Positions 20,535-41,036 of a stretch of DNA of 64,000 nucleotides are shown piece after piece. Origin of the DNA: Paraspadella gotoi (taxonomy: Eukaryota; Animalia; Chaetognatha); NCBI GenBank assembly GCA_051294375.1, contig CM119270.1, positions 8,667,213 to 8,731,212 of the forward strand, given 5' to 3'. The notes below the pieces were generated by a model. The model had not been told where the DNA came from and made no database searches. It saw nothing but the letters and a program-made list of their open reading frames with translations. The stretch's first letter is position 1, and each line of letters starts with the position of its first letter. The translations under genes were made by a program, and so were the position numbers.

Positions 20535-20619
<85 letters not shown>

Positions 20620-20895
20620 CTATTTCCAGGATCTTTCGACCGACGAGGAGAGAAAGGTTTACTTAGGGAGAAGGAAGAGGAAGAGGAGAAAATTATTGGA
20701 ACGAGAAATATTCTAAAAAGTAAAGGGTAAACGAGGAAAACGACGACGATAACAACTCTGACGATATTAACGACGACAATCAATACCAACACCGACGAAG
20801 ACGACGACGACGACGATGACAACGACGAAGACACAGCCAACCGTTTCCTCGTTTTGATCGTCCACGAAAAATCGCACGAAAGTTCTTTCTTTCTT

Positions 20896-20953
<58 letters not shown>

Positions 20954-22033
20954 CCTCTCGCGCAAAGAAAACAATAACTTTCTTTTCCGGTAAATCAGTT
21001 CCGATTTCCATGTGGCATCGCGCCATGTGGCACTCACTATCACCCTAATTGTTTCAGTTAATAGTGTATGATATTTATTTATTACCTCTTTGCTCTATGG
21101 CTTTAGTTTTCTGTTTTGCTGCTTATTTTTACACTGGTAAACATTATGATTATCCTTACTGCGACTACAATTTTTTTTTAAATATGATTTTTTTATTAAC
21201 ATTATTTTCTGGGAAAAGAAACTTTTTATATATTTAAATTAATTCATTGGATTGCAAATGTGGAACCGGAGAATTGAAATCCAATACCATGAAAAATGAA
21301 CATATATTATAATGACATGATTACATTTTCTGATACCATCTCTTCAAGATCATAGGTGTGTTCTGTAAGTGTAACCCAAATTCAGTCAAACCAGAATCGT
21401 GAGTGTTCATTTGTTTAAACTCCCAGTTTTACACTAAAGTTTCCAGATAGAGCTTACCTTAAAGGGATAAAGAAACAAATGCTAATTTTTTTTTATAGAA
21501 AACAGTAATCGTTCGAATAACAGCACAACTTTTTCATAAAGCAAATGTAATATATGTAGTATGAAACTATGTCTATGGCTTATAAAATTGGTACAACCAA
21601 TATAAAAATTATCCATTCATTTAATAAATAAGCTATAAATAAGCTTTCAATCAAGACTCTCCCACAGTCTCGTTTATTCACTCCCAGAGTACCCGGCTTC
21701 CTTATCAAAGAAGTAGCATAAAATCTCACAGAATGTTTCAATCGTATTTACTTACATGCTAGAGCGGAGTACAATATAGTATTCCCCGATCTAATACTTA
21801 AAGGGAGTGGTCTTTTCATACAATTGAAACATTCTTTGAAACAATACACTACTTCATTGATAGGGAAGCCAGGGTACTCTGGGAGTGAAATAAACGAGAC
21901 TGTGAGAAAGTCTTAATTGAAAGCTTGCAGGGAACTGCTATGTCATTATCTTGTAAGAGTGATGGAGGCCTTAAACCACCAAAGTCAGGGGCAAGATAGC
22001 TTGTTTATTAAATTGATAATTTTTATATTGGTT

Positions 22034-22316
22034 TGTAGTCGGGCATAGCAAAGTTCACCCCGCCTCTAAGCATTAAATCCTTCAGTTGTAACCCGGTGGC
22101 TCATTGAGTAAAGCCATCAGCTCATGACCACTAGGTACGGGTTCAATCCCAACCCGGTACCTACTCTGCGGGAAGTGTGAGGACGGCCGTAAGCCGCCTT
22201 GGGGGCGTGGAAAACTCTCAAGCCTGGTTCCAAGCCCAGGACCCGTTCCATAGCTGCTAGAGGGGTTAAAGAAGTTATGGATAGTCATCTTCAGCCCACT
22301 TAGCGCCTTATCCACA
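22034..22316 (+). mobile_element. solo-LTR-like element family 1 (tRNA-like segment plus twister fold), duplicate copy
   Basis: TGTAG...CCACA ends; flanks GGTT / CGTT (one mismatch in the noisier copy). Confidence 0.75.
22168..22246 (+). ncRNA. twister ribozyme, P5-type (duplicate copy)
   Basis: Identical to 31636-31714; predicted cut between T22190 and A22191. Confidence 0.72.
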
Positions 22317-22379
22317 CGTTGTACCAATTTTATACATATATTCAATTATTCATGTTTATACCAAAACATTGATTTACAA

Positions 22380-24159
22380 CTAATGAGAAAGATTTTTTGC
22401 TCCTGGAAATTCTCATTCGACAAATGTGACACGTCTCGATCTGATTCATGCAGGTCTCACAACCCGTGTGACCACAAGACAAGACGATATCCATAGGATT
22501 TTCCAAACATATTTTACATTGTTCGCCTTCCGCCTCGCTCGGGCGACTTTCTAGCTCCGCCTTTTCTCGTTGAAGAGTGTCTATCGTCTTGGCTTGGTTG
22601 CTGATTTCGAGTTCATTGAGTTCTATCTTCTCTTTCAGGTAATCGATGGTGTCGTTGATGTGACGAGCTTCTTGTCCTTCTTCTTCCGTCCTTTCTTCAT
22701 TGTCAAAATCCTCTGATGAAGACTTAACATTTCTTCCTCCATTTCTTCCTTTGATTCATCAATATCTCCAGCTCTCTTTTCAATTTATCCGTTTCTTCTT
22801 TTTGCATGGAAATATCTCGGCTCATCTTTTCATTGTCCCTTCTAACAAACGTTTTTCTCCAGTTAAAACGATATTTTTCGATTTAATATTTTCGAAAGTT
22901 TATCTTGAAATTTTCTTCATTCTCTTTAGCTCGTCTTGATTCCTGGTGCATGTTTTTGTTTTCATTAAACAGGAAGTTATTTTCTTTTCCAAGTTCTCGA
23001 TTACTCTTCGTACTCTTTTTCTTTATCAAGATATTTAGAACGATTATCCTCTAATTGTTTTTTCAAATTATCATTCATTACTTGAACTTTCCCGATTCTC
23101 TTTATGTGAATGGCGAGCTCTTGGCTGCATCGCACCGCATTTGCAGAGTTAATATTTCACTAACCATTCTCTCACGTTCCTCTTGCAAAACTTCTAATTC
23201 GTGTTCAGGTTGAATTTCCTTCTCGTGTTTCTTCTTCAACTCTTGCAGTTCGAGAGTCTTTGTTTCCATTTCTTGCTGATGTTTAGCCGCCAAAGATGTT
23301 TTTTCTGACTGCAAAGATCGAAACTCTCTTTCAAATTTTTCTTGCTGCGTCGCTTTTCGTCTTTAAGACGTTCCGTTTCTCTCAACAATGTCTCCACTTT
23401 GACCCAGCCTCCTCCTTTAATTTTCCTTTCTTGTTTTAAGACTTTGATCTTTTCGTCTTCCTTGCGCACCAATGTACTGATGATCTTTTTTCGATATCCT
23501 TCGCTTTCTCTTTCCAACTCTTTCACTTTTTTGTTGAGCTCTTCGTTTCTCGATCGATCTCCGTTTTTTCGTCCTCAAAATTTCAATTTCTTCTTGAAAT
23601 TTTAGATATTTTTGGCTCGATTCCTCTGATATTTCTCGATCTTTTCGTTCATCCCACCTGAATGTCCATCTTTTCCTCGTTATCTATCGATTTGTTCGCA
23701 GTGTTTTCATCTTTTCTGCGTCCATCAGTAGTTTTCGCATTGAATCTAAGTTTGTTTTCGAAAGACGAATCTCCTGTTTGAAAATAGCACAAATTGACAA
23801 AGATTAAAAATCCTCTTGCAGGCGTGAATATAAAATATCAATTTTAATCAATTAAAAATTTACTTATAGTTAATATAGAATTTTAAATAAAAAGAATTAA
23901 CAACGCACCAGTAGGGGACCTAGGGGTATTTGTAAAGGATGGGGACAATTCCAGGCTTTCAACCGTCGGAGAAACATATTGAAAAACTTGGAAGCTCGAA
24001 TGACGGACGTCTTCTCCGGCGGCGTCCTTGCCGACGGTGTCTTTTCGGCAGCGTCTTCTCCGGCGGCGTCGAGAAGCCCCCAATCTGACACTTTCGGTCG
24101 CCGTCCGCGTCCTCGACCGACGCTTCGAGCCACAGCTCACCTCCGATCTCCATGGCCAT
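22380..24159 (-). pseudogene. frameshifted duplicate of the coiled-coil RING gene (probably sequencing errors)
   Basis: Collinear with 31846-33651 but broken into short ORFs by homopolymer indels. Confidence 0.75.
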
Positions 24160-24902
24160 CGTTCTGATTTTGCGCTGACAACTGGTAAAAGGTTCATTAA
24201 CAAGTTTTTTAAATAAATTGTATGATCAATAACTACATATTTCTTCCTTTTATTTAGCGGATTGTAGTACTAGTACATACATGAGAGGTAGAAAGAAATA
24301 ATATTGGAGCAGTAGTCAGAAAGAAAAGATATCAAAATAAATGCCGTAAATACTAATTTAACGAATATGGCACACACTGCGCTCATCAGGCGTTTATTCC
24401 GTTTGATTTTTTTTCAATGAATGAAAACATTAGGTGAAAAAAAATCAACTTTTTTGTTCGGAAAGTAACATTCTCTAGTCGAAAGGGAAAAAGCAGTTTT
24501 AGGAAGTAACATTGTCAGAAATGAATTTGCTTTTTAGCACAACTTGTCCCTGTTCGAGCAGCTGGAAAAAGTTGTCGAGGCAAGTCGTGTTCTGCCCTCA
24601 TGCCACATTTCTTTTTTTTGCTAATTATTTTTAATGATTTAGGCAAAATGTTGTGAATGGTAGTTGTTTGCGTAATAGCGTCGGCTACAACAGCGGCTTT
24701 TAGTGGTGAGCAATGTTTCAACTTCCTGGTTCTAAAGTTATCCCTCGCATTTGCTACTTTTATCTTAATGTAAATAAAAAGATTGGTTAAGGCCCCAGGG
24801 CCAGGGACCTCATTTTAGTTCGGCAATATGCATTTTAAAAAATATTTTTAGTAAATCCTTGTGAAAAATTATTGTTGACTAGAAAAGAAGTAATTTCTTC
24901 GT

Positions 24903-27900
24903 CAGCGGTTCTTTTTAACATCGATTTAATACGGCATCGAGTGCACAACGAATGAGATGTCCGGGATATGTTTTCCGGACCTTTGGGCTACACAAAAAAA
25001 GAAGGGTAAACAAAATTTTTCCTAATGTACGCAGTTTTTTTATAAATTAATATTAAAATTAGCTATATAAAATCAACAAAGTAGAATAAAAAAAATTAAA
25101 CAATGGTTTAAGAATTTTTTAAAATAAAAATATCCTGCATCATCCATAATCTATGAACAATTTCCTTTCGTTTGCAGTCCATAACCATTATTCTAATCTT
25201 TAAATGTTTATTAGTATTATTTTTCTTTATTAAAAATATTTATTTTTAATTTTTTTTAAATAATTTAAATTAAAAAAAATGTATAACTATGCAAATGATT
25301 GAAAAAAAATTTTATATTATAAGGGACTTACCTACCTAATATAGGCCTTCAAATACATATATAGTAAGTTTATTATGATTATGTTTTGATATAGAAAATA
25401 AATAATTTAAATAATTAAATATATGAAAATATTTTATACTTGAATTTTTTTTAGCATAATAAAACATAATTTTTAATTAAATGTTCATGATGCTTTTATT
25501 AGCTACTGTCAGGTTGTATCCTTGTCAATTATATATAATTTTATAACTTTCTTTTTATTTTTTAGTAATATTGACCGCTATATTCTTATTTGACAAAATC
25601 TAAAAAATTACTGATATTAAAAATTTGTATGAACACCGAACAAAACTTTTTTTTTAAATCACATGCTATTTAATTTGTGGAGTGATATAATAATTTCCTT
25701 GGACAAAATTTAAGGTTTAAACAATCCTAACTAAGACATTTTTAAGGCGCAAAAGTAAGGTTGTTTAAAAAAAACCTGCAAGATGCAAAAGTAATAAAAA
25801 AAGTTATTCCTTGAATATCTTTATGAAAAAAAGAGGGAGCAAGGTGGGTGTGGTATCAAATTAAAGCCTAATCATGGGAACAACATTTTTCTAGAACAGT
25901 TTTGTTTAAATTTTATCCAAATATTTACACAGCTTTTTATATTTAAATACAAAGTTAAAAGTATAAACAGTTTTTTTGCATTACAAAATTTCAATGAAGG
26001 CTATATAAATTTTTTTTGTTTTTTCTTTTGTAAATTTGAAAAGACGGAAAGTCTGAATTACATTTTAAATTACAATTAAATTTCTCTATACTGTATAAAA
26101 TTTGCTTGTATTTTTTAGTTAACAGTAAAAAAACAAGCAAAAAATTTTTTTAGTAGCTTGATAAAATGTTTTATTAAATATAAAAAATTGATAAATAAAA
26201 AATGTTTTCAGCTTTAATATAACAGTTTGACGTCTACCTTCTTGTCTGTTGAAAAAAAATATCATTTTTCATTATCTTTCAACTGCTAAAAAAGCTTGAT
26301 ATACAGGCTTGTTTATCATAATTAAAAATTTTAAAAAATTACTTAACTGCTGACATGATTTGACAAAGCAGCAGAATCATTGTGTTGAATTGTATGTGCT
26401 AATTTTCTTTAAATATAAGCAACGCTTTATAAAGGGAATTTAATTCTATTTTTATCATCCATTTGTTAATTAAGAAAAAAAAATTCGCGAAAGGGGTTCA
26501 TTGACTGACTTATATGATTGCATTTTTTAGGTTTCCTTTACTGCCCCATTACGAAGGACATAAAAGGTCATTATTATGCAATGTCACTATGACAGATTAT
26601 GCTTCTACCCTTTATGCCACCTGCATTCTGAATTTTTCTTTTTTTGCCTTTCCATGGTATTAAGATAAAAAAAATTATTTTGAGAGATCGATCAGCATGG
26701 GGAATTATCGTTGGTAAGCTTAGTTAACCCACTCCGATCAAATTTTTAAAAGCAGGTTTTTTTTTCATCTATTCTAGACATTCACTCTATATTGGTAGCT
26801 ATTTATTTTTAATTTTTTATATTCTCTTTCGCGTAATCAAAGAAACATTTTTCGTGTCAATTATAGAAAAAAGTAAAACGTTTTCAAAAATTAAAAAATG
26901 CTAATAGAGAATGCACTATACTTAACAAATATACTGGATGTTTAATATGTATTAGAACTTTGATGCCCACTCAAATAAAAAAAACTGTAATATACCTGCT
27001 TTTCTGTCATAATAAAAGAGGCTACTGCATTAAGTTAAAACGCTACTAACCTACTAAGCTAGTACATTTGACAACCTTAAAATGTCTAGTTGGATTGTTT
27101 AAAGTTTTTTAATTTTGTCCAGAATAATATTATATCAGTTTTAAAAAATTAAATAGCATGTGATTTAAAAAAAAGTTTTTGTCTGTTTCAATAAAATAAT
27201 TTTTAAATATCAGTAATTTTTGGATTTTGTCAAAAGTAATGTAAATATAGCAGTCAGATTACTAAAAATAAAAGAAGTTATATAAAATTTTATAATTGAC
27301 AGGAATACAACTGACCAGCAAATATTAAGCTCATGAACAATTAATTAAAAATTATGTTTATTATGCTAAAAAAATATTCAAAAGTTTATAAATTTTTTCC
27401 TTATTTTTAATTGAAATTTAAATTTTTAATTTTCTTATCAAAACATAATCATATAAACTTACTATATATGTATTTGAAGGCCTATTATTAGTATGGTAAG
27501 TGCCCTTATAATATAAAATTTTTTCAATCATTTGGCATAGTTATAATTTTTTTAATTTAAATTATTTGAAAAAAAATTAAAATAATATTTTATAAGAAAT
27601 AAATTAATTACAATAAACTTTAAAGATAGAATAATGATTATGGACTCAAAACGAAAGAAAATTGGTTCATAGATTATGGATGATGCATGAATTTTTGATT
27701 TTAAAAAAATTTAAACCATTTTTTAAATTTTTTTTATTCTACTTTGTTGATTTTATATAGCTAATTTTAATATTAATTTATAAAAAACTGTCATTAGTAA
27801 AAAATTTGTTTACCCTCTTTTTGTGTAAAGCCCAAAGGTCCGAAAGCATTATCCCGGGACATCTCATTTCTTGTGCACTCGATTGCCGATTAATCGATGT

Positions 27901-27915
27901 AAAAAGGAACCGGTG
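24903..27915. mobile_element. non-autonomous foldback DNA transposon (duplicate copy)
   Basis: Same long TIRs as 34384-37338. Confidence 0.85.
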
Positions 27916-29994
27916 ATCGTATTAAGTCAGAGAAATTGAAGTTAAACTTTCTGAAGGTATAAAAGTTAAGCTTTAAAAAATTGAAAAAAAAGGTTATGTT
28001 CCATGGTTAATTTATATTTTACCCCTTATTATTTAATTACTTTTACTGTTAATTATTGTAACCTTATTTTTTTTCAAATTAAAAAAAAAACCTGATTTTA
28101 AAACCATTTGTTTTTCTCGCAATCATCGTCCCTTCTGGCGTTAATTTTCGCTAAACAATTTAAACAAAAATAAGTACGTATTAACAAACATGTATTCTTT
28201 TTGTACGGAAGTTAAGCTTTAAAGTTGCAAAATAAATTTATAGTTTTGTAAATTCATATTTCGCAGGTTCAGTTTAACATTCTTCGAGAAATTTCAACAA
28301 TGAAATTCTACTTTTCTCAGTAAGTGCGTAGCAACGATGTGAAAACTTAGGCACTAACAATCAGGTCCTCTCCAATGACTTAAAATATACTCATATAAAT
28401 GTATTTCGTCCAATATTACTAAATTAATAAAAAGCCCTGCAGCTTTTTTACTCTCCAAAACTCCGTTTCATGTGCACTCCCAGCTTTCGTCTTTCCTCCA
28501 AACGACGATTTTTTAGTTTCTTTTTCGTTTCTGTAACCATTGTGTGACGGTAATGTAAATCTCTTCCTCTCTCGTCCCTTCGCTCTTCCTCCTCCTATCA
28601 AAAACTAGGGTGAACGATCTTTCCTCTTCCTCCATCTTCGCCGACATGGTTTACTGGGGCCGGCGCATGAACCGAAGTACAACATCCGGCCTGATATCCG
28701 TGCGTAATCTTCCTCCGCCTCAAGTAAGGATCCGAGTGTAAAGTAGTTCGATATTTTTTTTTTATTTATAAAATTTGTAAGAGAAATGCGTTGCGACTTC
28801 TGCGAGAAATCCAACTTAGAAAATAAACATTTTTAGCATTAAAAATATGGGTCGATCCTTATTTGCTTGTCCATCGTTTTTGTTGAAAAAACAATTACGG
28901 AATAAAGAGAGAAAAAAAAAGTTCTCTCTGCTCCCTCTCTCTTTTTCATTTGCAGGTTTTTTGACCTGGATACGACCCGGGCAGAGCTAGAGGGAGAAAC
29001 TAGTCGAATTGGCTCCGCGCTAATCGATTCCGACCTCTCTCTCTCTTTCTCTCTCTCTCTGCTGCTCTCTCTTCTCTCGTCTCCTCTTCCTCTCTCTCTC
29101 TCTCTCTTCTCTCTTCCCTCTTCCCTTTCTTCCTTTTTTCTCCTAAATTCTTTTTCTCTCTCTCGAGTCCACTTGCTGCTAGCTCGAAGGCCCTTGCTCT
29201 CTCTGTTTTCTATTCTCTCTCTATTTTCTTCCTTGTTGCTTGTAATGGAGAACACAATACGTACAAAATGGACCATTCAACGATAGCGCGATTTTGGCTT
29301 TGTACTGGGAAAATGTCAACAAACAGCGCACATTTACAAAATAGCGTTCATGCGTCACAAATTATATTCGGCTCTTAATTAAATCTTATTATGCAAATTT
29401 GATGTGTTTTACGGCAATTTTTTCTTTCTTTCTTTCTTTCTTTCTCTCTTTCTTTCTTTCTTCCTTTCTTTCTTTCTTTCTTTTCTTTTTTCTTTCTTTC
29501 TTCTTTCTTTTCTTTCTTTTGTGTTTACGCTCCTTGATTTAACTTTTTACGCGCTTTTCGTATGTCTCACCCTCTTATTCTTTTTTTTAACTCCTCTCCA
29601 CCAAATCAAATCAAATTAAATTGGCTACATTTTATTTCCGATATCGCCAGCTTCTTGAACGTAAACANNNNNNNNNNNNNNNNNNNNNNNNNGAGAGAGA
29701 GAGAGAGAGAGAGAGAGACTAGAATGAAGAGTTAGAGAAAGAAAGAGAGAAATAAAGAAAATGATTGTAGAAGAAAAACAATATTAATGCCAGTCAAATT
29801 TATTTATTTCTTGATTTTAGTCAAAATATATCGGTTTTACTAGTTTCCATGTTTTTTCTTCGTTTTGTTTTGTTTTATTTCTGTTGAAACTGAATCTCCA
29901 TTTTTATTTTTCTTGTTTAGTTTTTTTTTTTTTTTTTTCCTGAATGTTGTTCGGGAACAAAACTTCCTCGAGTCTCATTTCCTTCATCCTCCTC

Positions 29995-30081
<87 letters not shown>

Positions 30082-30370
30082 CTATTTCCAGGATCTTTCG
30101 ACCGACGAGAGGAGAAAGGTTTACTTAGGGAGAAGGAAGAGGAAGAGGAGAAAATTATTGGAACGAGAAATATTCTAAAAAGTAAAGGGTAAACGAGGAA
30201 AACGACGACGATAACAACTCTGACGATATTAACGACGACAATCAATACCAACACCGACGAAGACGACGACGACGAGGACGACGACGATGACAACGACGAA
30301 GACACAGCCAACCGTTTCCTCGTTTTGATCGTCCACGAAAAATCGCACGAAAGTTCTTTCTTTCTTTCTT

Positions 30371-30426
<56 letters not shown>

Positions 30427-31557
30427 CCTCTCGCAAAGAAAACAATAACTTTCTTTTCCGGTAAATCAGTTCCGATTTCCATGTGGCATCGCGCCATGTG
30501 GCACTCACTATCACCCTAATTGTTCAGTTAATAGTGTATGATATTTATTTATTACCTCTTTGCTCTATGGCTTTAGTTTTCTGTTTTGCTGCTTATTTTT
30601 ACACTGGTAAACATTATGATTATCCTTACTGCGACTACAATTTTTTTTTAAATATGATTTTTTTATTAACATTATTTTCTGGGAAAAGAAACTTTTTATA
30701 TATTTAAATTAATTCATTGGATTGCAAATGTGGAACCGGAGAATTGAAATCCAATACCATGAAAAATGAACATATATTATAATGACATGATTACATTTTC
30801 TGATACCATCTCTTCAAGATCATAGGTTGTTTCTGTAAGTGTAACCCAAATTCAGTCAAACCAGAATCGTGAGTGTTCATTTGTTTAAACTCCCAGTTTT
30901 ACACTAAAGTTTCCAGATAGAGCTAACCTTAAAGGGATAAAGAAACAAATGCTAATTTTTTTTATAGAAAACAGTAATCGTTCGAATAACAGCACAACTT
31001 TTTCATAAAGCAAATGTAATATATGTAGTATGAAACTATGTCTATGGCTTATAAAATTGGTACAACCAATATAAAAATTATCCATTCATTTAATAAATAA
31101 GCTATAAATAAGCTTTCAATCAAGACTCTCCACAGTCTCGTTTATTCACTCCCAGAGTACCCGGCTTCCTTATCAAAGAAGTAGCATAAAATCTCACAGA
31201 ATGTTTCAATCGTATTTACTTACATGCTAGAGCGGAGTACAATATAGTATTCCCCGATCTAATACTTAAGGGAGTGGTCTTTTCATACAATTGAAACATT
31301 CTTTGAAACAATACACTACTTCATTGATAGGGAAGCCAGGGTACTCTGGGAGTGAAATAAACGAGACTGTGAGAAAGTCTTAATTGAAAGCTTGCAGGGA
31401 ACTGCTATGTCATTATCTTGTAAGAGTGATGGAGGCCTTAAACCACCAAAGTCAGGGGCAAGATAGCTTGTTTATTAAATTGATAATTTTTATATTGGTT
31501 TGTAGTCGGGCATAGCAAAGTTCACCCCGCCTCTAAGCATTAAATCCTTCAGTTGTA

Positions 31558-31627
31558 ACCCGGTGGCTCATTGAGTAAAGCCATCAGCTCATGACCACTA
31601 GGTACCGGGTTCAATCCCAACCCGGTA
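31558..31627 (+). promoter_or_regulatory. tRNA-derived internal Pol III promoter (A box TGGCTCATTGAG, B box GGTTCAATCCC)
   Basis: Resembles tRNA-Lys/Met scaffolds (CCCGG..GCTCA..GTAAAGC..CATCAG CTCATGA..GGGTTCAATCCC). Acceptor and anticodon stems do not pair, so it is not a functional tRNA. Second copy at 22091-22159. Confidence 0.7.
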
Positions 31628-31635
31628 CCTACTCT

Positions 31636-31714
31636 GCGGGAAGTGTGAGGACGGCCGTAAGCCGCCTTGGGGGCGTGGAAAACTCTCAAGCCTGGTTCCA
31701 AGCCCAGGACCCGT
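31636..31714 (+). ncRNA. twister ribozyme, P5-type circular permutation
   Basis: P5 GCGGG/CCCGT; GA-GGA; short P1 CGGCCG; U^AA; GC (T2); P3 CTTGGGGG/CTCTCAAG; P4 CCTGG/CCAGG with loop TTCCAAGC; T1 UCC:GGA. P2 is imperfect. Predicted cut between 31658 and 31659. Confidence 0.75.
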
Positions 31715-31845
31715 TCCATAGCTGCTAGAGGGGTAAAGAAGTATGGATAGTCATCTTCAGCCCACTTAGCGCCTTATCCACAGGTTGTACCAATTTTATA
31801 CATATATTCAATTATTCATGTTATACCAAAACATTTGATTTACAA

Positions 31846-33651
31846 CTAATTGAGAAAGATTTTTTGCCTCCTGGAAATTCTCATTCGACAAATGTGACAC
31901 GTCTCGATCTGATTCATGCAGGTCTCACAACCCGTGTGACCACAAGACAAGACGATATCCATAGGATTTTCCAAACATATTTTACATTGTTCGCCTTCCG
32001 CCTCGCTCGGGCGACTTTCTAGCTCCGCCTTTTCTCGTTGAAGAGTGTCTATCGTCTTGGCTTGGTTGCTGATTTCGAGTTCATTGAGTTCTATCTTCTC
32101 TTTCAGGTAATCGATGGTGTCGTTGATGTGACGAGCTTCTTGTCCTTCTTCTTCCGTCCTTTCTTCATTGTCAAAAATCCTCTGATGAAGACTTAACATT
32201 TCTTCCTCCATTTCTTCCTTTTGATTCATCAATATCTCCAGCTCTCTTTTCAATTTATCCGTTTCTTCTTTTTGCATGGAAATATCTCGGCTCATCTTTT
32301 CATTGTCCCTTTCTAACAAACGTTTTTCTCCAGTTAAAACGATATTTTTCGATTTAATATTTTCGAAGTTTATCTTGAAATTTTCTTCATTCTCTTTAGC
32401 TCGTCTTGATTCCTGGTGCATGTTTTTGTTTTCATTAAACAGAGAAGTTATTTTCTTTTCCAAGTTCTCGATTACCTCTTCGTACTCTTTTTCTTTATCA
32501 AGATATTTAGAACGATTATCCTCTAATTGTTTTTTCAAATTATCATTCATTACTTGAACTTTTCCCGATTCCTCTTTATGTTGAATGGCGAGCTCTTGGC
32601 TGCATCGCACCGCATTGTGCAGAGTTAATATTTCACTAACCATTCTCTCACGTTCCTCTTGCAAAACTTCTAATTCGTGTTTCAGGTTCGAATTTTCCTT
32701 CTCGTGTTTCTTCTTCAACTCTTGCAGTTCGAGAGACTTTGTTTCCATTTCTTGCTGATGTTTAGCCGCCAAAGAGTTTTTTTCTGACTGCAAAGATCGA
32801 AACTCTCTTTCAAATTTTTCTTGCTGCGTCGCTTTTTCGTCTTTAAGACGTTCCGTTTCTCTCAACAATGTCTCCACTTTGACCCCAGCCTCCTCCTTTA
32901 ATTTTCCGTTTTCTTGTTTAAGACCTTTGATCTTTTCGTCTTTCTTGCGCACAATGTACTGATGATCTTTTTCGATATCCTTCGCTTTCTCTTCCAACTC
33001 TTTCACTTTTTTGTTGAGCTCTTCGTTTTCTCGATCGATCTCCCGTTTTTTCGTCCTCAAAATTTCAATTTCTTCTTGAAATTTTAGATATTTTTGGCTC
33101 GATTCCTCTTGATATTTATCGATCTTTTCGTTCATTCCCACCTGAATGTCCATATTTTCCTTTGTTAATCTATCGATTTGTTCGCGTAGTTTTTCAATCT
33201 TTTCTGCGTGCATCAGTAGTTTTCGCATTGAATCTAAGTTGTTTTCGAAAGACGAATCTCCTGTTTTGAAAATAGCACAAATTGACAAAGATTAAAAATC
33301 CTCTTGCAGGCGTGAAAAATAAAATATCAATGCTAATCAAATTAAATATATATTTATAGTTAATATAGAATTTTAAATAAAAAGAATTAACAACGCACCA
33401 GTAGGGGACCTAGGGGTATTTGTAAAGGATTGGTGCGACAATTCCAGGCTTTCAACCGTCGGAGAAACATATTGAAACTTGGAAGCCTCGAATGACGGCG
33501 TCTTCTCCGGCGGCGTCCTTGCCGACGGTGTCTTTTCCGGCAGCGTCTTCTCCGGCGGCGTCGAGAAGCCCCAATCTGACACTTTCGGTCGCCGTCCGCG
33601 TCCTCGACCGACGCTTCGAGCCACAGCATCACCTCCGATCTCCATGGCCAT
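31846..33651 (-). CDS. coiled-coil protein with C-terminal C3HC4 RING (IAP/Neuralized/MIB-like E3 ligase); exons ~33399-33651(+) and 31846-33260
   Basis: About 420 aa of E/K-rich heptads, then CKICLENPMDIVLSCGHTGCETCMNQIETCHICRMRISRRQKIFLN*. The phase-1 intron 33261-33398 (GTGCGT..AACAG) joins the two ORFs in frame. Further 5' exons are possible. Confidence 0.85.
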
Positions 33652-34383
33652 CGTTCTGATTTTGCGCTGACAACTGGTAAAAGGTTCATTAACAAGTTTT
33701 TTAAATAAATTGTATGATCAATAACTACATTATTTCTTCCTTTTATTTAGCGGATTGTAGTACTAGTACATACATGAGAGGTAGAAAGAAATAATATTGA
33801 GCAGTAGTCAGAAAGAAAAGATATCAAAATAAATGCCGTAATACTAATTTAAAACGATATGGCACACAAACTGCGCTCATCAGGCGTATTCCGTTGATTT
33901 TTTTTCAATGAATGAAAACAGTTAGGGTGAAAAAAAATCACTTTTTTGTTCGCGAAAGTCAACATTCTCTAGTCGAAAGGGAAAAGCAGTTTAGGAAGTA
34001 ACATTGTCAGAAATGAATTGCTTTTTACACAACTTGTCCTGTTCGAGCAGCTGGAAAAAGTTGTCGAGCAAGTCGTGTTCTGCCTCATGCGCTCATTTCT
34101 TTTTTTCTTAATTATTTTTAATGATTTAGGCAAAATGTTGTGAATGGTAGTTGGTTGCGTATAGCGTCGGCTACAACAGCGGCTTTAGTGGTGGAGCAAT
34201 GTTTCACTTCCTGGTTCTAAGTTATCCCTCGCATTTGCTACTTTATCTTAATGTAAATAAAAATTGGTTAAGGCCCCAGGGCCAGGGACCTCATTTTAGT
34301 TCGGCAATATGCATTTTAAAACAATATTTTAGTAAATCCTTGTGAAAAATTAATTGTTGAACTAAAAAGAAGTATTTCTTCGT

Positions 34384-37338
34384 CACGGTTCCTTTTTACA
34401 TCGATTTAATCGGCATCGAGTGCACAAGAATGAGATGTCCCGGGATATGTTTCCGGACCTTTGGGCTACACAAAAAGAGGGTAAACAAATTTTTCCTAAT
34501 GACAGTTTTTTTATAAATTAATATTAAAATTAGCTATATAAAATCAACAAAGTAGAATAAAAAAAATTAAAAAATGGTTTAAATTTTTTTAAAATAAAAA
34601 TATCCTGCATCATCCATAATCTATGAACAATTTCCTTTCGTTTGAGTCCATAACCATTATTCTATCTTTAATTGTTTATTAGTAATTAATTTTTCTTTAT
34701 TAAAATATTATTTTAATTTTTTTTTCAAAATAATTTAAATTAAAAAAAATTATAACTATGCAAATGATTGAAAAAAAATTTTATATTATAAGGGACTTAC
34801 CTACCTAATAAGGCCTTCAAATACATATATAGTAAGTTTATTATGATTATGTTTTGATATAGAAAATAAATAATTTAAATAATTAAATATATGAAAAAAA
34901 TTATAATTTGAATTTTTTTTAGCATAATAAACATAATTTTTAATTAATTGTTCATGATGCTTTTATTAGCTACTGGTCAGTTGTATCCTTGTCAATTATA
35001 ATAATTTTATAACTTCTTTTATTTTTAGTAATATTGACCGCTATATTTACTTACTTTTGACAAATCTAAAAATTACTGATATTAAAAATTATGTATGAAA
35101 CAGACAAAAAACTTTTTTTTTAAATCACATGCTATTTAATTTTGTGGAGTGATATAATATTATCCTTGGACAAATTTAAAAGGTTTTAAACAATCCCAAC
35201 TAGACATTTTTAAGGCAAAAGTAAGGTTGTTTAAAAAAAACTGCAAGATGCAAAAAGTAATAAAAAAAGTTATTTTCTTGAATATCTTTTGAAAAAAAAG
35301 AGGGAGCAAGGTGGGTGTGGTATCAAATTAAAGCCCTAATCATGGGACACATTTCTAGAACAGTTTTGTTAAATTTTATCCATAAATATTTATACAGCTT
35401 TTTATTTAAATACAAGTTAAAAGTATAACAGTTTTTGTGCATTACAAATTTCAATGAAGGCATATAAATTTTTTTGTTTTTCTTTTGTAAATTGAAAGAG
35501 GAAAGTCTGAATTACATTTTAATTACCATTAAATTTTCTCTACTGTATAAATTTGCTTGTATTTTTTAGTTAAAGTAAAAAACAAGCAAAAATTTTGTAG
35601 TAGCTTGATAAATGTTTTTTTTTAAATATAAAAATTGATAAATAAAAAAATGTTTTCAGCTTTATATAAACAGTCTGGACGTCTACCTTCTTGTCTGTGA
35701 AAAAATAATCATTTTTTCATTATCTTCAACTGCTAAGAAAAAGCTTGATATACAGCTTGTTTATCATAATAAAATTTTAAAAATTATTTAACTGCTGACA
35801 TATTTGACAAAGCAAGACATCATTGTGTTGAATTGTATTGCTAATTTTCTTTTAAATATAACAACCTTTTATAAGGGAATTTAATTCTATTATTTATCAT
35901 CCATTTAATTAAGAAAAAAAATTCGCGGAAAGGGTTCATTGACTGACTTAATGATTGCATTTTTTAGGTTTCTTTACTGCCCCATTACGAAGGACATAAA
36001 AGGTCATTATTATCATGTCACTATGTACAGATTATCTCTACCCTTTATGCCACCTGCATTCTGAATTTTCTTTTTTTCCCTTTCAATGGTATTAAATAAA
36101 AAAAATTATTTGAGAGATCGATCAGCATGGAGGATATCGTTGGTAGCCTTAGTTAACCCACTTCCCGATCAAAATTTTTCAAGGTTTTTTTTTCATCTAT
36201 TCTAGACATTACTCTAACTATTGGTACTATTTATTTTTAATTTTTTATCATTCTCTTTCGCGTAATCAAAGAAACATTTTTCGTGTCAAAAAAATTATAG
36301 AAAAAAGAGTAAAACGTTTTCAAAAATTAAAAAATCTATAGAGGAATCTACTATACTAAACAAATATACTGATGTTAATATGTATTAGAACTTTGATGCC
36401 ACTCCAAATAAAAAAAACTGTAAATATACTGCTTTTTCTGTCATAATAAAAGAGGCTACTGCATTAAGTTAAAACCTACTAACCTACTAAGCAGTACATT
36501 TGACAACCTTAAAATGTCTAGTTGGGATTGTTTAAAAACTTTTTAAATTTTTGTCCAAGATAATATTATATCAGTTCAAAAAATTAAATAGCATGTGATT
36601 TAAAAAAAAGTTTTTTCTGTTTCATAAATAATTTTTTAATATCAGTAATTTTTGGATTTTGTCAAAAGTAAGTAAATATAGCAGTCAGAATTACTAAAAA
36701 TAAAAGAAGTTATAAAATTATTATAATTGACAAGGATACAACTGACCAGCAGCTATTAAAAGCATCATGAACAATTAATTAAAAATTATGTTTATTATGC
36801 TAAAAAAAAATTCAAAGTTATAAATTTTTTCATATATTTAATTATTTAAATTATTTATTTTCTATATCAAAACATAATCATAATAAACTTACTATATATG
36901 TATTTGAAGGCCTATATTAGGTAGGTAAGTCCCTTATAATATAAAAATTTTTTTAAATCATTTGGCATAGTTATAATTTTTTTTAATTTAAATTATTTGA
37001 AAAAAAATTAAAATAATATTTTAATAAAGAAAAATTAATTACAAATAAACTATTAAAGATAGAATAATGATTATGGACTCAAACGAAAGAAAATTGTTCA
37101 TAGATTATGGATGATGCATGATATTTTTATTTTAAAAAAAATTTAAACCATTTTTAATTTTTTTTATTCTACTTTGTTGATTTTATATAGCTAATTTTAA
37201 TATTAATTTATAAAAAAACTGTCATTATAAAAATTTGTTTACCTCTTTTTGTGTAGCCCAAAGGTCCGGAAACATATCCCGGGACATCTCATTCTTGTGC
37301 ACTCGATGCCGATTAAATCGATGTAAAAAGGAACCGTG
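34384..37338. mobile_element. non-autonomous foldback DNA transposon, ~830-bp TIRs, CACGG...CCGTG ends (Transib/Chapaev-like)
   Basis: 34384-~35215 is the reverse complement of ~36506-37338. Flanks TTCGT / ATCGT resemble a 5-bp TSD with one mismatch. The ~1.3 kb AT-rich core has no long ORF. Confidence 0.85.
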
Positions 37339-39102
37339 ATCGTATTAAGTTCAGAGAAAGAAGTTAAACTTTCTGAAGGTAGGTACGACAAATCAAATTT
37401 TAAAAAAATTGAAAGGTATTGCACATGTAAGTATATTTATACCTATTATTTATATTACTTACTTGTATTATTGATAACCTTATTTTTTTGCAAAAAATGT
37501 TCCAAACGCATGAGTAATTCGCTAATTAATATATTATATTGCTATATAATTGTTAAAAATTTTTTTTAGATATTTTAGGTTTTTTTAATTGATTCTGATA
37601 GAGCTTAAAAAGTAAAGCAAAAAATAATAATTACAACTTTTTAAAATTTTGATGTTTATTACTAAAAATTAATAAAAATGCCTAAAATCAATCGGGATGA
37701 TGATGATGATGAATGATTTTTTCAGTTTTTCTAATTTAAACCCACTTATCATCAAAATATAGAAAAAAAAGAATTATACTTTGTGTAGAATAACTTTTTA
37801 TAAGCTATTTGAATCTGCTTTTAAAACTAAAAATTCCAAAAAAAAATTTTTGACATTTCGCTATCTATAATAAATATTAAAAAATTAATTACAATGCTTC
37901 TTGTCATTTTAGAAAATTTTGGCCATTGAAAGTTTCTCAGAATGTATGAAGTTTCATTTGGAAAGGTTCCCAAATCAAACTTCTGACCCACCCCATTGAC
38001 GAAGTTTGGCTCTACTGAAAGGTATAAAAAGTTAAGCTTTAAAAAATTGAAAAAAAGGTATGTCCATGGTTAATTTATATTTTACCCCTTATTATTTATA
38101 TTACTTTTACTGTTAATTATTGTAACCTTATTTTTTTCAAATTAAAAAAAAACCTGATTTTAAAACCATTTGTTTTCTCGCAATCAATTTCCGTCCCCTC
38201 TGGCGTTAATTTTCCTAAACAATTTAAACAAAAAATAAGTAACGTATTAACAAAATGTATTCCTTTTGTACGGAAAAGTTAAGCTTTAAAGTTCAAATAA
38301 ATTTATAGTTTTGTAAATTCATATTTCGCAGGTCAGTTAACATTCTTCGAGAAATTTCAACAATGAAATTCTACTTTTCTCAGTAAGTGCGTACAACGAT
38401 GTGAAAACTTAGGCACTAACAATCAGGTCCCTCATCCAATGCACTTAAAATATACTCAATATAAATGTATTTCGTCCAATATTCTAAATTAATAAAAGCC
38501 CTCAGCTTTTTTACTCTCAAAACTCCGTTTCATGTCACTCCAGCTTTCGTCTTTCCTCCAAACGACGATATTTTTAGTTTCTTTTTCGTTTCTTAACCAT
38601 TCGTGTGACGGTATGTAAATCTCTTCCTCTTCTCGTCCTTCGCTCTTCCTCCTCCTATCAAAAACTAGGGTGAACGATCTTCCTCTTCCTCCATCTTCGC
38701 CGAGCAATGTTTACGGGGGCCGGCGCATGAACCGAAGTACAACCATCGGCCTAGATATCCGTGCGTATCTTCCTCCGCCTCAAGAAGGATCCGAGGTAAA
38801 GTAGTTCCGAATATTTTTTTTTATTTATAAAATTTGTAAGAGAATTCGTTCGACTTCTGCCGAGAAATCCAACTTAGAAAATAAACATTTATTAGCATTA
38901 AAAAATGGGTCGATCCTTATTTCTGTCATCGTTTGTTGAAAAAAAAATTACGGATAAAGAGAGAAAAAAAAAGTTCTCTCTCTCCCTCTCTCTTTTTCAT
39001 TCGCAGGTTTTTTTGACCTGGATACGACCCGGGCAGAGCAGAGAGAAACTAGGTCGAATTGCTCCGCGCTATCTCTCTCTCTCTCTCTCTCTCTCTCCTC
39101 TC

Positions 39103-39159
<57 letters not shown>

Positions 39160-39426
39160 CTAATCTTCTCTCTCTCGAGGTCACTTGCTCTAGCTCGAAG
39201 CGCCTTGCTCTCTCTGTTTCTATCTCTCTCTCTATTTCTTCCCTTGTTGCTTGTAAACTGAGAACACATACGTACAAAATGGACCATTCAACGAAGCGCG
39301 ATTTTGGCTTTGTACTGGAAAATGTCAACAAACGCGCAACCAATTTTACAAATACGTTCAATCGTCAACAATTATATTCGGCTCTTAATTAAATCTTATT
39401 ATACAATTTGATGTGTTACTGCAATT

Positions 39427-39482
<56 letters not shown>

Positions 39483-40934
39483 TTGTGTTTTACCTCCTTG
39501 ATTTACTTTTTACCCTTTTTGTCTTTCTCACCCTCTTATTCTATTTTCTCTTAACCTCCTCTTCCCACCAAATCAAATCAAATTAAATTGGCTACATTTT
39601 ATTTCGATATCGCCAGCTTTCTGAACGTAAAACAAATTTCGTATAACATCGCCGAGGATAATGACGAGTACGTCAGATACTCCCCTCCTTTTCTCGGATG
39701 AAGCGTCAAATAAAAAAAGAAAAATTAATCTCAAACATTTTTGTGGCCTTAATTTTTGTTTAAGGGGACCGGATAGGTTTTTTTTTTATCTGCTTAAGTT
39801 TTTGCCCCACATTTTTTTTTCTCTGGCATCGGGATCGAGAAAAAAAAAGGAGAGACAGACCGAGAGAGAGGCAGCCTGTTGCTGCAACTGCGGTCACAGC
39901 ATCGGGTTGAGTTGAAAGTGGCAGAATCATCGTCGTCGTCGTCGTCCGCGTCGAGAACGAATCCAAATCTAGATCTTAGCCATTTTTTTGCGGTCATTTC
40001 TATCGTCGTCGTCGTCGTTGTCGCTATCATCTTCGCCATCGTTATCGTTATCGTCCGCGAGGCTTTATTTTGGAAAACATCGAGTTTGCGTTCCTCTGGA
40101 TGTTTTTGTGGTTGTAACTAAAAAATACATATTTTGTAAACTCTATTTTAGTACTCAGTATAAACATTTTTGTGGTGAGTTTTTTTATAATTTTATACAT
40201 AAAAGTTTATTCTTTTATTTATGTATAATTCATAGAGTTATTGATTAAATACTTTATTTTTATTGTTATTTTGTATTGTTATTTTGTTTTTATTTTATTA
40301 TTATTTAAATATATATTTATTTGAGGTAATATATGAATTCTTTGTTTACATACAACGACTTTTTATTATGAAACATAAATTTCGGACATGCTTCGGCTTT
40401 AACGTAAGCCTTCATCAACGTAAATTGATTTGCGAAAAAAAAAACATTTTCTACCTCAAATAATGCAACGAAAAGAAAGGAAAACAAACACAGATATATA
40501 TGTATTTATTTATTTATCTATTAAAAAAATTATTCCCTTTATTTGATGAAGCTCCGATGAAGGAGTTTTTCCTCCTCCTCATGATTTCCCTTTTCCTTTT
40601 TACCCACAAAATCTTTCCTTCCGAACCACAAACCTTTTTTTTTCCATTTAACCTCCTTTCCACTTCTTTTGAGATTTAACCTTAATTCTCCTTCTCTTTT
40701 TTTTTTCTTGTTCGATTTTCACGGGATTTTTCCTCGTTTACTTTTCGGAGGTGAGTAAATCTCTTTTTTGACAGATATGGTTTCCTTTTTTTTGATTGCG
40801 ACGGTTGTGAAGTTGGCGCGACTTTGTCCTTTTATCTCTGGGTTGCCTCTTTTTTGTAGCACGAAAATGTATATAGCTCTAAAATACATGAAGATTTTAA
40901 AATGTTCTTGTTATGATGAATTTCGTTTTCTCTC

Positions 40935-41036
<102 letters not shown>

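What the first reader, a model, noticed from the sequence alone, without database searches (positions are those of the whole stretch)
31558..31714. tRNA-derived Pol III promoter placed ~30 nt upstream of a twister cleavage site inside an LTR
Seen: A and B boxes of a tRNA-like sequence. Its T-arm region is remodelled into a perfect 13-bp hairpin (TAGGTACCGGGTT-CAATCCC-AACCCGGTACCTA, 31599-31631), followed at once by the ribozyme. Known: Cassandra TRIMs carry 5S-derived Pol III promoters in their LTRs, and tRNA-containing TRIM LTRs have been reported. Inference: Pol III starts in the LTR and the ribozyme trims off the promoter-containing leader or defines monomer ends. P1 is minimal (CGGCCG) and P2 has a bulge, so activity may be attenuated.
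Basis: partly seen in the sequence, partly recalled or inferred. Interest (0 to 1): 0.75.

Follow-up and report, generated by a model that had tools for sequence, protein, structure and literature searches.

The report
Twister-like ribozyme inside abundant SINE
This is a 282-base mobile element, very abundant in its genome, that carries a tRNA-gene-type promoter motif, a perfect 13-base-pair hairpin and a nearly complete self-cutting 'twister' RNA motif; it is likely a polymerase-III SINE rather than part of an LTR, and its ribozyme is predicted to be weak or to need two RNAs pairing, which would make it a new variant of the ribozyme-carrying retroposons.

Summary
The sequence features are real. 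There is an exact B box (31608-31618) inside a perfect 13-bp hairpin (31599-31631). Five bases later comes a type-P5 twister-like module (31636-31714) with the UAA cut site at 31658|31659.

The LTR context is not supported. The two copies in the window belong to a 9.47-kb tandem duplication split by an N gap.

Comparison with eight uninterrupted copies of the host MITE terminus shows a discrete 282-bp insertion (31501-31782) flanked by a 4-bp duplication, GGTT. Public runs show summed contig depth about 10^4-fold above the unique flank, heterogeneous 3' flanks, and homology reaching at least 30 nt upstream of 31546. Transcripts therefore likely start near 31501-31505, not 31558.

tRNA detectors find nothing at default settings, and the A box is ambiguous.

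The twister scores only 16 bits in Rfam (threshold 37.6), yet L1, L2, L4, T1, T2, P3, P4 and P5 are all present. T1 has the same GGA/UCC covariation as four bona fide phage twisters. P1 has collapsed to a loopless palindrome, and P2 is 2-3 bp.

Variation within the family and in a second lineage falls in the P3 loop, a bulge and wobble-compatible sites.

Best reading: a SINE with a constrained but attenuated twister that may depend on RNA dimers. No RNA evidence was obtained.

The parts
31501..31782 (+). 282-bp retroposon insertion (SINE-type). Alternatively it starts at 31505, if the duplication is GGTTGTA with a 1-T indel.
   Evidence: Empty-site comparison: 8 of 8 other MITE termini in the window read ..TTGGTTGTAC.. 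without interruption. One metagenome contig continues GTACCAATTT after 31500. The family's 3' end is at 31782 with heterogeneous flanks: 97 contigs, agreement 0.40.
31497..31500 (.). Target-site duplication GGTT, 5' copy
31783..31786 (.). Target-site duplication GGTT, 3' copy
31513..31523 (+). A-box-like motif TAGCAAAGTTC (2 mismatches), 13 nt from the element's 5' end. This is the geometry expected for a tRNA-type Pol III promoter. It is not confirmed in the family majority.
   Evidence: ARAGORN relaxed (-i -ps80) starts a tRNA-like fold at 31505. The loose-end consensus differs here.
31564..31574 (+).
   Evidence: No variant >=5% is listed here in run X1.
31608..31618 (+). Exact B box GGTTCAATCCC
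31599..31631 (+). Perfect 13-bp hairpin with a 7-nt loop, containing box B
31636..31714 (+). Type-P5 twister-like module. P5 31636-40/31710-14; P2 31643,45,46/31661-63 (31644 bulged); L1 GAGGA 31647-51; P1 palindrome CGGCCG 31652-57; L1 UAA 31658-60; L2 GC 31664-65; P3 31666-73/31683-90 (loop 31674-82); P4 31691-95/31704-08; L4 31696-31703. T1 pairs 31649-51 with 31697-99. T2 pairs 31664-65 with 31702-03.
   Evidence: Element map taken from Table 1 of PMC8501958. Phage twister controls.
31658..31659 (+). Predicted scissile bond (U|A of UAA)
   Evidence: Inferred from the cmscan alignment and from the cleavage position stated in PMC8501958. Not tested.
31794..31797 (+). First TTTT on the sense strand, 12 nt past the element. 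There is none inside the element. Candidate Pol III terminator.
   Evidence: About 0.65 TTTT would be expected inside by composition, so this is weak evidence.
22034..22316 (+). Twin of the same insertion, inside the duplicated 9.47-kb unit. It has a 1-nt deletion in the hairpin's 5' arm.
31050..31500 (.). Host MITE-like foldback element. Its right terminus continues at 31783-31800, with an 18-nt perfect terminal inverted repeat.

Best explanation
The stretch is one copy (present twice only because its 9.47-kb surroundings are duplicated) of a 282-bp, very high-copy interspersed element inserted with a 4-bp target duplication into a MITE terminus. It is likely a Pol III-transcribed SINE whose RNA would start near 31501-31505, and it carries a twister-derived type-P5 ribozyme module that is predicted to cut between U31658 and A31659, probably inefficiently as a monomer.

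Shown:
- the insertion boundaries and the duplication;
- the high abundance and the heterogeneous 3' flanks;
- the exact B box in a perfect 13-bp hairpin;
- all twister loops and pseudoknot partners, plus P3, P4 and P5;
- variation in the family, and in a second lineage, that avoids the ribozyme core.

Inferred:
- TFIIIC would bind box B together with an A-box-like site. Pol III would start a few bases before 31506 and run to the T4 at 31794.
- A LINE enzyme would copy the uncleaved RNA, since genomic copies keep the head and the whole ribozyme.
- P1 has lost its loop (CGGCCG) and P2 is 2-3 bp. A single RNA would therefore fold mostly into an inactive alternative.
- The twister fold, and so cleavage that separates the promoter head from the tail, would be favoured when two RNAs pair through the palindrome.
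For: Insertion:
- 8 of 8 other MITE termini are uninterrupted where this locus has 282 extra bases flanked by GGTT. One metagenome contig shows the empty site.

Abundance and boundaries:
- In run X1, 5196 contigs were laid on 296 bases. Summed depth is 2.1e5-7.8e5 over 31550-31709, against 23.4 in the unique flank.
- At 31782, 97 contigs run on with agreement 0.40.
- At 31546, 80 contigs run on upstream with a shared sequence (agreement 0.77) that matches window 31517-31545 apart from a few changes.
- Head depth exceeds tail depth, and there are sub-family tails.

Promoter:
- The exact B box occurs only here and in the twin.
- An A-box-like motif lies 13 nt from the 5' end, and relaxed ARAGORN starts a fold at 31505.
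- There is no T4 inside the element; the first is 12 nt downstream.

Twister:
- cmscan aligns GAGGA, UAA, GC and GGUUCCAAGCCC to Twister-P5.
- Every T1, T2, P3, P4 and P5 pair is a standard pair.
- 4 of 6 IMG/VR contigs that share the P4/L4 18-mer are true Twister-P5 (49.6-53.2 bits). All four pair GAGGA with GGUUCC, as here.
- The order L2-P3-P4-L4 matches the S. mansoni twisters in Table 1 of PMC8501958.

Constraint:
- In X1 the 5 sites in 31637-31713 with a variant share >=5% are 31637 (C>U opposite G), 31644 (C/A/U, bulge) and 31675, 31679 and 31682 (P3 loop). Four of the 5 fall in 10 'free' positions of 77 (hypergeometric p = 7e-4).
- Contigs from two biofilm-metagenome runs carry the hairpin and the twister contiguously. 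They differ at 31637, 31644, 31673, 31676, 31677, 31679, 31680 and 31686, with none in L1, L2, L4, P1, P2 or P4. 31684C and 31686C turn G.U into G-C in P3.

Dimer:
- The cofold minimum-energy structure of two copies (-66.1 kcal/mol, against -59.6 for two monomers) is the domain-swapped twister architecture, with intermolecular P1, P2 and P5 and local P3 and P4.

Precedent:
- Inefficient cleavage without P1 (PMC8501958 citing its ref 79).
- Hammerheads that need to act as dimers (abstract of PMC7229834).
Against: - Rfam gives 16.0 bits, below the gathering score of 37.6 (E = 2.1 for that search).
- The monomer's minimum-energy fold (-29.8 kcal/mol) is not the twister fold (-19.6 for the nested helices). 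The region folds no better than shuffles (z = -0.16).
- P1 cannot form within one molecule. P2 lacks the A-U pair next to L1 and has a mismatch or bulge.
- No tRNA is called at default thresholds.
- The A box is ambiguous. The family majority appears to differ from the window at the 31513 motif.
- Boxes A (31513) and B would be 95 nt apart, longer than usual.
- The termini are TGT..ACA with a 4-bp duplication, which is what a solo LTR would show.
- There is no A-rich or simple-repeat tail, and no partner LINE was identified.
- Every genomic copy seen keeps the uncleaved ribozyme, so cleavage is not part of the productive copying cycle.
- The variation table is a depth-weighted summary of contigs, not an alignment of copies. 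Seventeen rows were not shown, the classes of sites were defined after seeing the data, and three of the five polymorphisms are CpG transitions.
Confidence: 0.58

Rival explanations
1. Same SINE, but the twister module is a catalytically dead relic. It could, for example, have been captured from the 5' end of an RTE-type LINE, where twisters trim upstream transcript. On this reading its uniformity reflects a young family or some other structural role, not cleavage.
For: - P1 has collapsed, P2 is 2-3 bp, and the score is below the Rfam threshold.
- The monomer's minimum-energy fold hides the UAA in a hairpin loop.
- All copies retain the uncut ribozyme, and no copy starts at 31659 were listed.
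- Twisters at RTE/Perere-3 5' ends are documented (PMC8501958; PMC7761336).
- The tRNA-like head is as invariant as the twister.
Against: - Every catalytic-core loop and both pseudoknots are intact. T1 carries a compensated A-U pair, as in bona fide twisters.
- Variation in the family and in the second lineage sits in the P3 loop, a bulge and wobble-compatible sites, while the 3' third of the element varies much more.
- RNA cleaved by a type-P5 twister would lose about 23 nt of the ribozyme. A simple origin as an 'RTE 5'-end relic' therefore does not explain the complete upstream half.
Confidence: 0.28
2. One reading: the 282-bp unit is a (solo) LTR of a TRIM- or retrozyme-like element. A Pol III promoter and a ribozyme in each LTR would let unit-length RNAs be excised between the two ribozymes.
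For: - The termini are TGT...ACA and the target duplication is exactly 4 bp.
- Plant retrozymes carry hammerheads in their LTRs (PMC4918200, search listing only; PMC7229834 figure legend).
Against: - The window holds no LTR pair. The only second copy lies in a 9.47-kb duplication whose homology runs for kilobases on both sides.
- The 97 contigs that run on past 31782 share no internal sequence (agreement 0.40). Head depth exceeds tail depth, and the tails are modular.
- A tRNA-like 5' end lies within 5 nt of the element's start.
- Summed depth is about 10^4-fold over the unique flank.
Confidence: 0.1
3. The twister resemblance is chance similarity in a GC-rich SINE body.
For: - E = 2.1 in the Rfam search.
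- 2 of 6 viral contigs and one bacterial gene matched 18-20-mers of the motif by chance.
Against: Several features the covariance model does not score are present in the right order and spacing: GAGGA...UAA-GCC-GC...GGUUCCAAGCC, T1 and T2 complementarity, and closing P3 and P5 helices. GAGGACGGCC and CCGUAA are shared with true phage twisters.
Confidence: 0.04

Closest known systems
Type-P5 twister self-cleaving ribozyme (Rfam RF02684)
   Same: The order of elements is the same: P2(3')-GAGGR-P1-UAA-P2(5')-GC-[P3]-P4 with an L4 loop GUYCCAAGC. T1 and T2 partners are present, and a closing P5 is possible.
   Different: - P1 has no loop (the palindrome CGGCCG).
- P2 is one pair shorter and has a bulge or mismatch.
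- There is a 25-nt P3 insert.
- The score is below the gathering threshold.
- It sits in an animal-type repeat rather than in phage or bacterial DNA.
T-variant or truncated twisters at the 5' end of Perere-3/RTE non-LTR retrotransposons (PMC8501958; PMC7761336)
   Same: A twister carried by a retroposon. The L2-P3-P4-L4 layout matches the S. mansoni sequences in Table 1. P1 is weak or absent.
   Different: Those are type P1 and lie at the very 5' end. Copies begin at the cut site, and the target-site duplication supplies P1. Here the ribozyme is type P5 and internal (about 136-214 nt from the start), and copies keep about 157 nt upstream of the cut.
Schistosoma Sm-alpha SINE-like elements with a Pol III promoter and a hammerhead ribozyme (as reviewed in PMC6765202)
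   Same: A short non-coding retroposon that combines Pol III boxes with a self-cleaving ribozyme. The ribozyme has a minimal helix and may act in cis or in trans.
   Different: - The ribozyme class differs (twister, not hammerhead).
- Sm-alpha often occurs in tandem, whereas this family is interspersed (1 tandem joint listed).
tRNA-derived SINEs (SINE2)
   Same: About 280 bp, non-coding, very abundant, flanked by a target-site duplication, with internal boxes A and B at the 5' end and a modular body and tail.
   Different: - tRNA detectors fail at default settings.
- The head is long or composite (box B at +108).
- There is no A-rich or repeat tail.
- The partner LINE is unknown.
Cassandra TRIMs and plant LTR retrozymes
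   Same: A Pol III-type promoter or a ribozyme inside a short non-autonomous retroelement. The TG..CA termini and the 4-bp duplication would fit.
   Different: No LTR pair, primer-binding site or polypurine tract was seen. The abundance and geometry fit a SINE.

Membership tests
Twister ribozyme (type P5) | Reaches the Rfam gathering score | tested here: not met
   16.0 bits against 37.6. The P1 tip deletion and the P3 insert are penalised.
Twister ribozyme (type P5) | L1 UAA cut site, L2 GC and L4 GUYCCAAGC closed by P4 | tested here: met
   31658-60, 31664-65, and 31695-31703 within P4 31691-95/31704-08. Element map from PMC8501958 Table 1.
Twister ribozyme (type P5) | Pseudoknots T1 (L1-L4) and T2 (L2-L4) | tested here: met
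   G-C, G-C and A-U for T1, and G-C and C-G for T2. The same GGA/UCC pairing occurs in 4 of 4 true phage Twister-P5. The pairing scheme itself is recalled.
Twister ribozyme (type P5) | P1 of at least 2 bp next to the cut site | tested here: not met
   CGGCCG has no loop, so at most one C-G pair can form within a molecule. A 6-8 bp P1 forms only between two RNAs.
Twister ribozyme (type P5) | P2 of about 4 bp | tested here: not met
   G-C and U.G, plus G-C beyond a 1-nt bulge. The family majority is the same.
Twister ribozyme (type P5) | Site-specific self-cleavage | not testable with these tools
   Needs an in vitro or in vivo assay.
tRNA-derived SINE | Short, non-coding, interspersed, high copy number, flanked by a target-site duplication | tested here: met
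tRNA-derived SINE | Internal Pol III boxes A and B near the 5' end | tested here: inconclusive
   Box B is exact. There are three A-box-like sites with 2 mismatches each, a level reached 159 times on the two strands of the window.
tRNA-derived SINE | Recognisable tRNA homology of the head | tested here: not met
   ARAGORN at default and Rfam find no tRNA. Only relaxed ARAGORN gives mutually inconsistent folds.
tRNA-derived SINE | LINE-derived, A-rich or simple-repeat tail | tested here: inconclusive
   The element ends ..TTATCCACA with no A-rich tail or repeat. No LINE partner is available to compare.
tRNA-derived SINE | Transcribed by Pol III | not testable with these tools
   No run on record as RNA. 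Contigs cannot show RNA ends.
LTR / TRIM / LTR-retrozyme | Two direct LTRs flanking an internal region with primer-binding site and polypurine tract | tested here: not met
   The only second copy lies in a 9.47-kb tandem duplication with continuous homology. The 3' flanks in the family are heterogeneous.
LTR / TRIM / LTR-retrozyme | TG..CA termini and a 4-6 bp target duplication | tested here: met
   TGTAG...CCACA flanked by GGTT.
Metazoan non-LTR retrozyme | Tandem repeats, each with a ribozyme, giving unit-length or circular RNA | tested here: not met
   One 'goes back' joint (1 contig) among the 15 joints listed, with 60 not shown. The window copy is solitary.

The most novel reading that the evidence does not exclude
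A Pol III SINE family carries a 'double twister'. The loss of the P1 loop left a palindrome, so the ribozyme is off in single RNAs and assembles only in domain-swapped RNA dimers. This would give the element concentration-dependent self-cleavage that severs its promoter head from its retrotransposition tail. It would be a twister counterpart of the double hammerheads of newt, axolotl and viroid RNAs, spread over thousands of loci.
Probability: 0.15. Interest if true: 0.8.

Novelty: new variant of a known kind. Interest (0 to 1): 0.55.

Why it matters
Twister ribozymes are numerous in animal genomes, but a biological role has been shown only at the 5' ends of RTE-type LINEs. A complete, internally placed type-P5 twister in a very abundant SINE with Pol III-type boxes would be a second, different association between this ribozyme class and retroposons. 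It would parallel the hammerhead-bearing Sm-alpha elements.

It would also place thousands of potential self-cleavage sites in transcripts. Finally, it offers a natural test case for activity without P1, or with a P1 formed only in RNA dimers.

I found no paper describing this in the held library. Searches covered open-access PMC and bioRxiv only. Roth et al. 2014 and the mini-twister paper were not held.

Tried and rejected
- No whole genome is held for this window.
- No natural copies could be fetched. The metagenome-contig scan with the B-box hairpin 21-mer gave 1 chance hit. The genome-contig scan with the twister-core 20-mer gave 1 chance hit, in a Paenibacillus coding region. The viral-contig scan with the same 20-mer gave 0. 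Covariation therefore could not be counted on an alignment of copies.
- No RNA holder was listed by the look-up of sequencing runs. Run X9 is only guessed to be RNA, and it covers the unique flanks at about 6-10x, as a DNA run would. I draw nothing on expression from it.
- I rejected the idea that the element's start (AGTTGTAACC, 31551) and the 3' flank (GGTTGTACC) are a terminal repeat or a target-site duplication. Family homology continues upstream of 31546, and the 3' flank is the MITE terminus.
- I considered register 2 for P2 (G43-C65, Y44-G64, G45-C63) and rejected it. It uses up the L2 GC needed for T2, and position 31644 is C, U or A in different copies or lineages.
- A downstream GAGGGG (31729-34) was examined as the remnant of a type-P1 arrangement. 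No P2 partner precedes it.
- Earlier scan notes for this genome: none.
- Searching papers for two sequence strings gave 0 papers.
- PMC3867598 and PMC4715771 are not held.

Full report
**Observation**

The letters are as described.
- The 13-bp hairpin at 31599-31631 is perfect and far beyond chance. It folds at -22.1 kcal/mol, z = -6.47, and 0 of 200 shuffles fold as well.
- Two perfect hairpins of 13 bp or more occur in the window, against a mean of 0.04 in 50 shuffles.
- Its 5' arm and loop contain an exact B box (GGTTCAATCCC, 31608-31618; consensus GGTTCRANNCC recalled). This occurs only here and at the twin copy. Shuffles give a mean of 0.4 per window.
Matches at that level occur 66 + 93 times on the two strands of the window, and three lie within 31495-31640, at 31513, 31556 and 31564.
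- An A box (<=2 mismatches) paired with an exact B box appeared in 2 of 100 shuffles.
- ARAGORN finds no tRNA in the window.
- Rfam lists no tRNA match at E<=10, whether on 1301 bases or on 146 bases.
- Only with lowered thresholds does ARAGORN draw three mutually inconsistent tRNA-like folds: 31505-31629 with a 41-nt 'intron', 31496-31571, and 31557-31629.
- 'tRNA-like' therefore holds at the level of motifs only.

**Context: not an LTR**

- The unit 31400-31800 has one other match in the window, 21933-22334, at 99%.
- That match is part of a tandem duplication. 20226-28078 matches 29693-37494 at 94% over 7993 columns, and 27954-29665 matches 38019-39631 at 87%.
- The two copies of the duplication are separated by a 25-N gap at 29668-29692.
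- The twin shares the flanks and differs in 8 of 303 columns. It is the same insertion duplicated with its surroundings, or an assembly artefact.
- Upstream (31050-31500) lies a MITE-like foldback element whose other terminus is at 31783-31800.
- Eight of eight other termini of that element in the window read ..ATATTGGTTGTACCAATTT.. without interruption. Here the sequence reads ..ATATTGGTT|TGTAGTCGGGC...TTATCCACA|GGTTGTACCAATTT...
- One metagenome contig also continues GTACCAATTT after 31500.
- The finding therefore lies in a discrete 282-bp insertion (31501-31782) flanked by a GGTT duplication. Alternatively the insertion is 278 bp, with a GGTTGTA duplication and one extra T.

**Family**

No genome is held, so I laid Logan contigs of public runs on the stretch.
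- In DNA run X1, the unique flank has depth 23.4. Over 31550-31709 the summed depth is 2.1e5-7.8e5, from 5196 contigs laid on 296 bases. Summed depth is not an exact copy number, but the excess is about 10^4-fold.
- At 31782, 97 contigs run on into unrelated AT-rich sequence (agreement 0.40). This marks the 3' end of an interspersed repeat.
- At 31546, 80 contigs run on upstream with a shared sequence (agreement 0.77, median 36 letters). It matches window 31517-31545 apart from a small diverged patch. The family therefore starts near 31501-31510, not at 31558.
- Depth is higher over the head than over the tail. The region 31720-31750 is variable, with alternative sub-family sequences.
- One 'goes back' joint (1 contig) is among the 15 joints listed; 60 were not shown.
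- No listed row shows copies starting at 31659.

**Twister anatomy**

cmscan aligns 31644-31707 to Twister-P5 at 16.0 bits (gathering score 37.6; E = 2.1 for 1301 bases, two strands and 4227 families). It deletes the P1 tip and inserts 22 nt where P3 lies.

I used the element map in Table 1 of PMC8501958, permuted to type P5. The module reads:
- P5: 31636-40/31710-14.
- Linker AA.
- P2 3' strand GYGU.
- L1: GAGGA.
- P1: CGG-CCG, with no loop.
- L1: UAA (cut U31658|A31659).
- P2 5' strand GCC.
- L2: GC.
- P3: 8 bp with a 9-nt loop.
- P4: 5 bp closing L4, GUUCCAAGC.

All listed pairs are standard pairs. T1 is G-C, G-C, A-U and T2 is G-C, C-G.

An unplanned control came from scanning IMG/VR for the P4/L4 18-mer.
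- The scan returned six contigs. Four are bona fide Twister-P5 (49.6-53.2 bits), and two are chance matches.
- All four pair GAGGA with GGUUCC. This is the same compensated T1 as in the window, where the Rfam consensus has GAGgG with GGUCcC.
- The window looks like these ribozymes with the tip of P1 removed and the A-U pair of P2 lost on both strands.

The defects are real. P1 cannot form within one molecule, and P2 is G-C and U.G, plus a G-C beyond a bulged 31644.

**Constraint**

In run X1, the sites within 31637-31713 with a variant share of 5% or more are:
- 31637, C>U at 12%, opposite G in P5.
- 31644, with C 80%, A 11% and U 9% (the window has U).
- 31675, G>A at 25%.
- 31679, A>C at 59%.
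- 31682, A>C at 16%. These last three are all in the P3 loop.

31633 and 31684 are private to the window copy, and the family's C at 31684 makes G-C in P3.

Four of the five sites fall in the 10 positions I class as free (the P3 loop plus 31644) out of 77, giving a hypergeometric p = 7e-4.

Contigs of two biofilm-metagenome runs from one study carry the hairpin and the twister contiguously (for example 31601-31710 and 31573-31672). They differ from the organism's majority at 31637, 31644, 31673, 31676, 31677, 31679, 31680 and 31686, with none in L1, L2, L4, P1, P2 or P4. 31686C turns G.U into G-C.

Caveats:
- This is a depth-weighted summary of contigs, not an alignment of copies.
- Seventeen rows were not shown.
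- The site classes were set after seeing the data.
- Three of the polymorphisms are CpG transitions.
- The head is equally invariant.

**Folding**

- The monomer's minimum-energy fold (-29.8 kcal/mol; z = -0.16) is not the twister. It places the UAA in the loop of a CGGC/GCCG hairpin.
- The nested twister helices evaluate to -19.6 kcal/mol before the pseudoknots are counted.
- Two copies cofold at -66.1 kcal/mol, against -59.6 for two monomers. The cofold structure is the domain-swapped twister architecture: intermolecular P1 through the palindrome, P2 and P5 in trans, and P3 and P4 local.

**Mechanism**

All of this is inferred, apart from what is marked above as shown.
- It is a SINE-type retroposon.
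- Pol III is recruited through box B and an A-box-like site. The 31513 site is 13 nt from the 5' end. ARAGORN's relaxed fold starts at 31505, one base before the 31506 at which I place the start of the tRNA-like acceptor arm.
- The RNA starts near 31501-31505 and ends at the T4 at 31794. There is no T4 inside the element, though only 0.65 would be expected by composition, so this is weak evidence.
- Productive copies derive from uncleaved RNA.
- The twister is attenuated as a monomer and is predicted to cut at 31658|31659 when the twister fold is reached, possibly in RNA dimers. Cutting would separate the roughly 157-nt head from the tail.

Precedents:
- Inefficient cleavage without P1 (PMC8501958, section read, citing its ref 79).
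- Hammerheads that need to act as dimers (abstract of PMC7229834).
- Sm-alpha SINE-like elements with Pol III and a hammerhead (passages of PMC6765202).

**Rivals**

- A dead relic of a twister. This remains well possible, given P1, P2 and the absence of any cleavage evidence.
- A solo LTR. TGT..ACA termini and a 4-bp duplication fit. Against it: there is no pair and no shared internal sequence, and the abundance, the modular tails and the tRNA-like 5' end argue otherwise.
- Chance resemblance. This is unlikely, given the ordered set of core motifs and pseudoknot partners.

**Comparison and novelty**

Known associations are:
- twisters at the 5' end of Perere-3/RTE elements (PMC8501958, abstract and sections 17 and 19 read; PMC7761336, passages);
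- hammerheads in Sm-alpha and in retrozymes.

An internal type-P5 twister behind Pol III-type boxes in an abundant SINE is a new variant. My searches of the held library found no description. Roth et al. 2014 was not held, and its supplementary lists could bear on this.

An earlier scan note (e1-9967494) describes a twister-headed short retroposon whose copies start at the cut site. The family here differs in just that respect.

**Limits**

- There is no alignment of individual copies.
- There is no RNA evidence.
- The A-box assignment and the exact 5' end remain unresolved.

Noticed in passing
window 20226-29665 and 29693-39631, gap 29668-29692: A tandem duplication of about 9.47 kb (94% then 87% identity) meets at a 25-N gap. 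It is either a recent tandem duplication or a haplotype/assembly artefact. It accounts for every 'second copy' near the finding.
   Followed up: partly
window 31050-31500 + 31783-31800; related copies at 4191-5155 (tandem, about 330-bp period), 8253-8270, 18016-18033: A MITE-like foldback element with an 18-nt perfect terminal inverted repeat and a long internal hairpin. The hairpin hits the MIR7533 model at 76.6 bits (gathering 230). The element is also very abundant in the public runs (depth up to 1.3e6 in X1).
   Followed up: partly
window 31846-33291 (-) and 17969-19384 (-): Long open frames. One is a 481-aa protein with a C-terminal RING finger whose stop lies 64 nt from the SINE, so the SINE sits antisense in its likely 3' UTR. 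The other is a 471-aa TRIM-like protein with a RING and two B-boxes.
   Followed up: partly
window 34383-35215 vs 37339-36507 (twins at 24906-25747 / 27916-27075): An inverted repeat of about 840 bp (95% identity), spaced about 1.3 kb apart, inside each duplicated unit. Its nature was not examined.
   Followed up: no
L003 563-617, L004 564-617, L006 602-656 (-), L007 602-655 (-): Four IMG/VR phage contigs carry bona fide Twister-P5 ribozymes (49.6-53.2 bits). All have the GAGGA / GGUUCC variant of pseudoknot T1.
   Followed up: partly
window 13964-14218: Seven tandem copies of a 29-nt C/A-rich unit (CCTTTATACCCACAAAACCCCTCGCA-like).
   Followed up: no
window-wide, e.g. 17523-17785, 20480-20672, 12330-12626, 40905-41049: Very dense (CT)n/(GA)n and (AAAG)n/(CTTT)n microsatellites throughout the window.
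   Followed up: no
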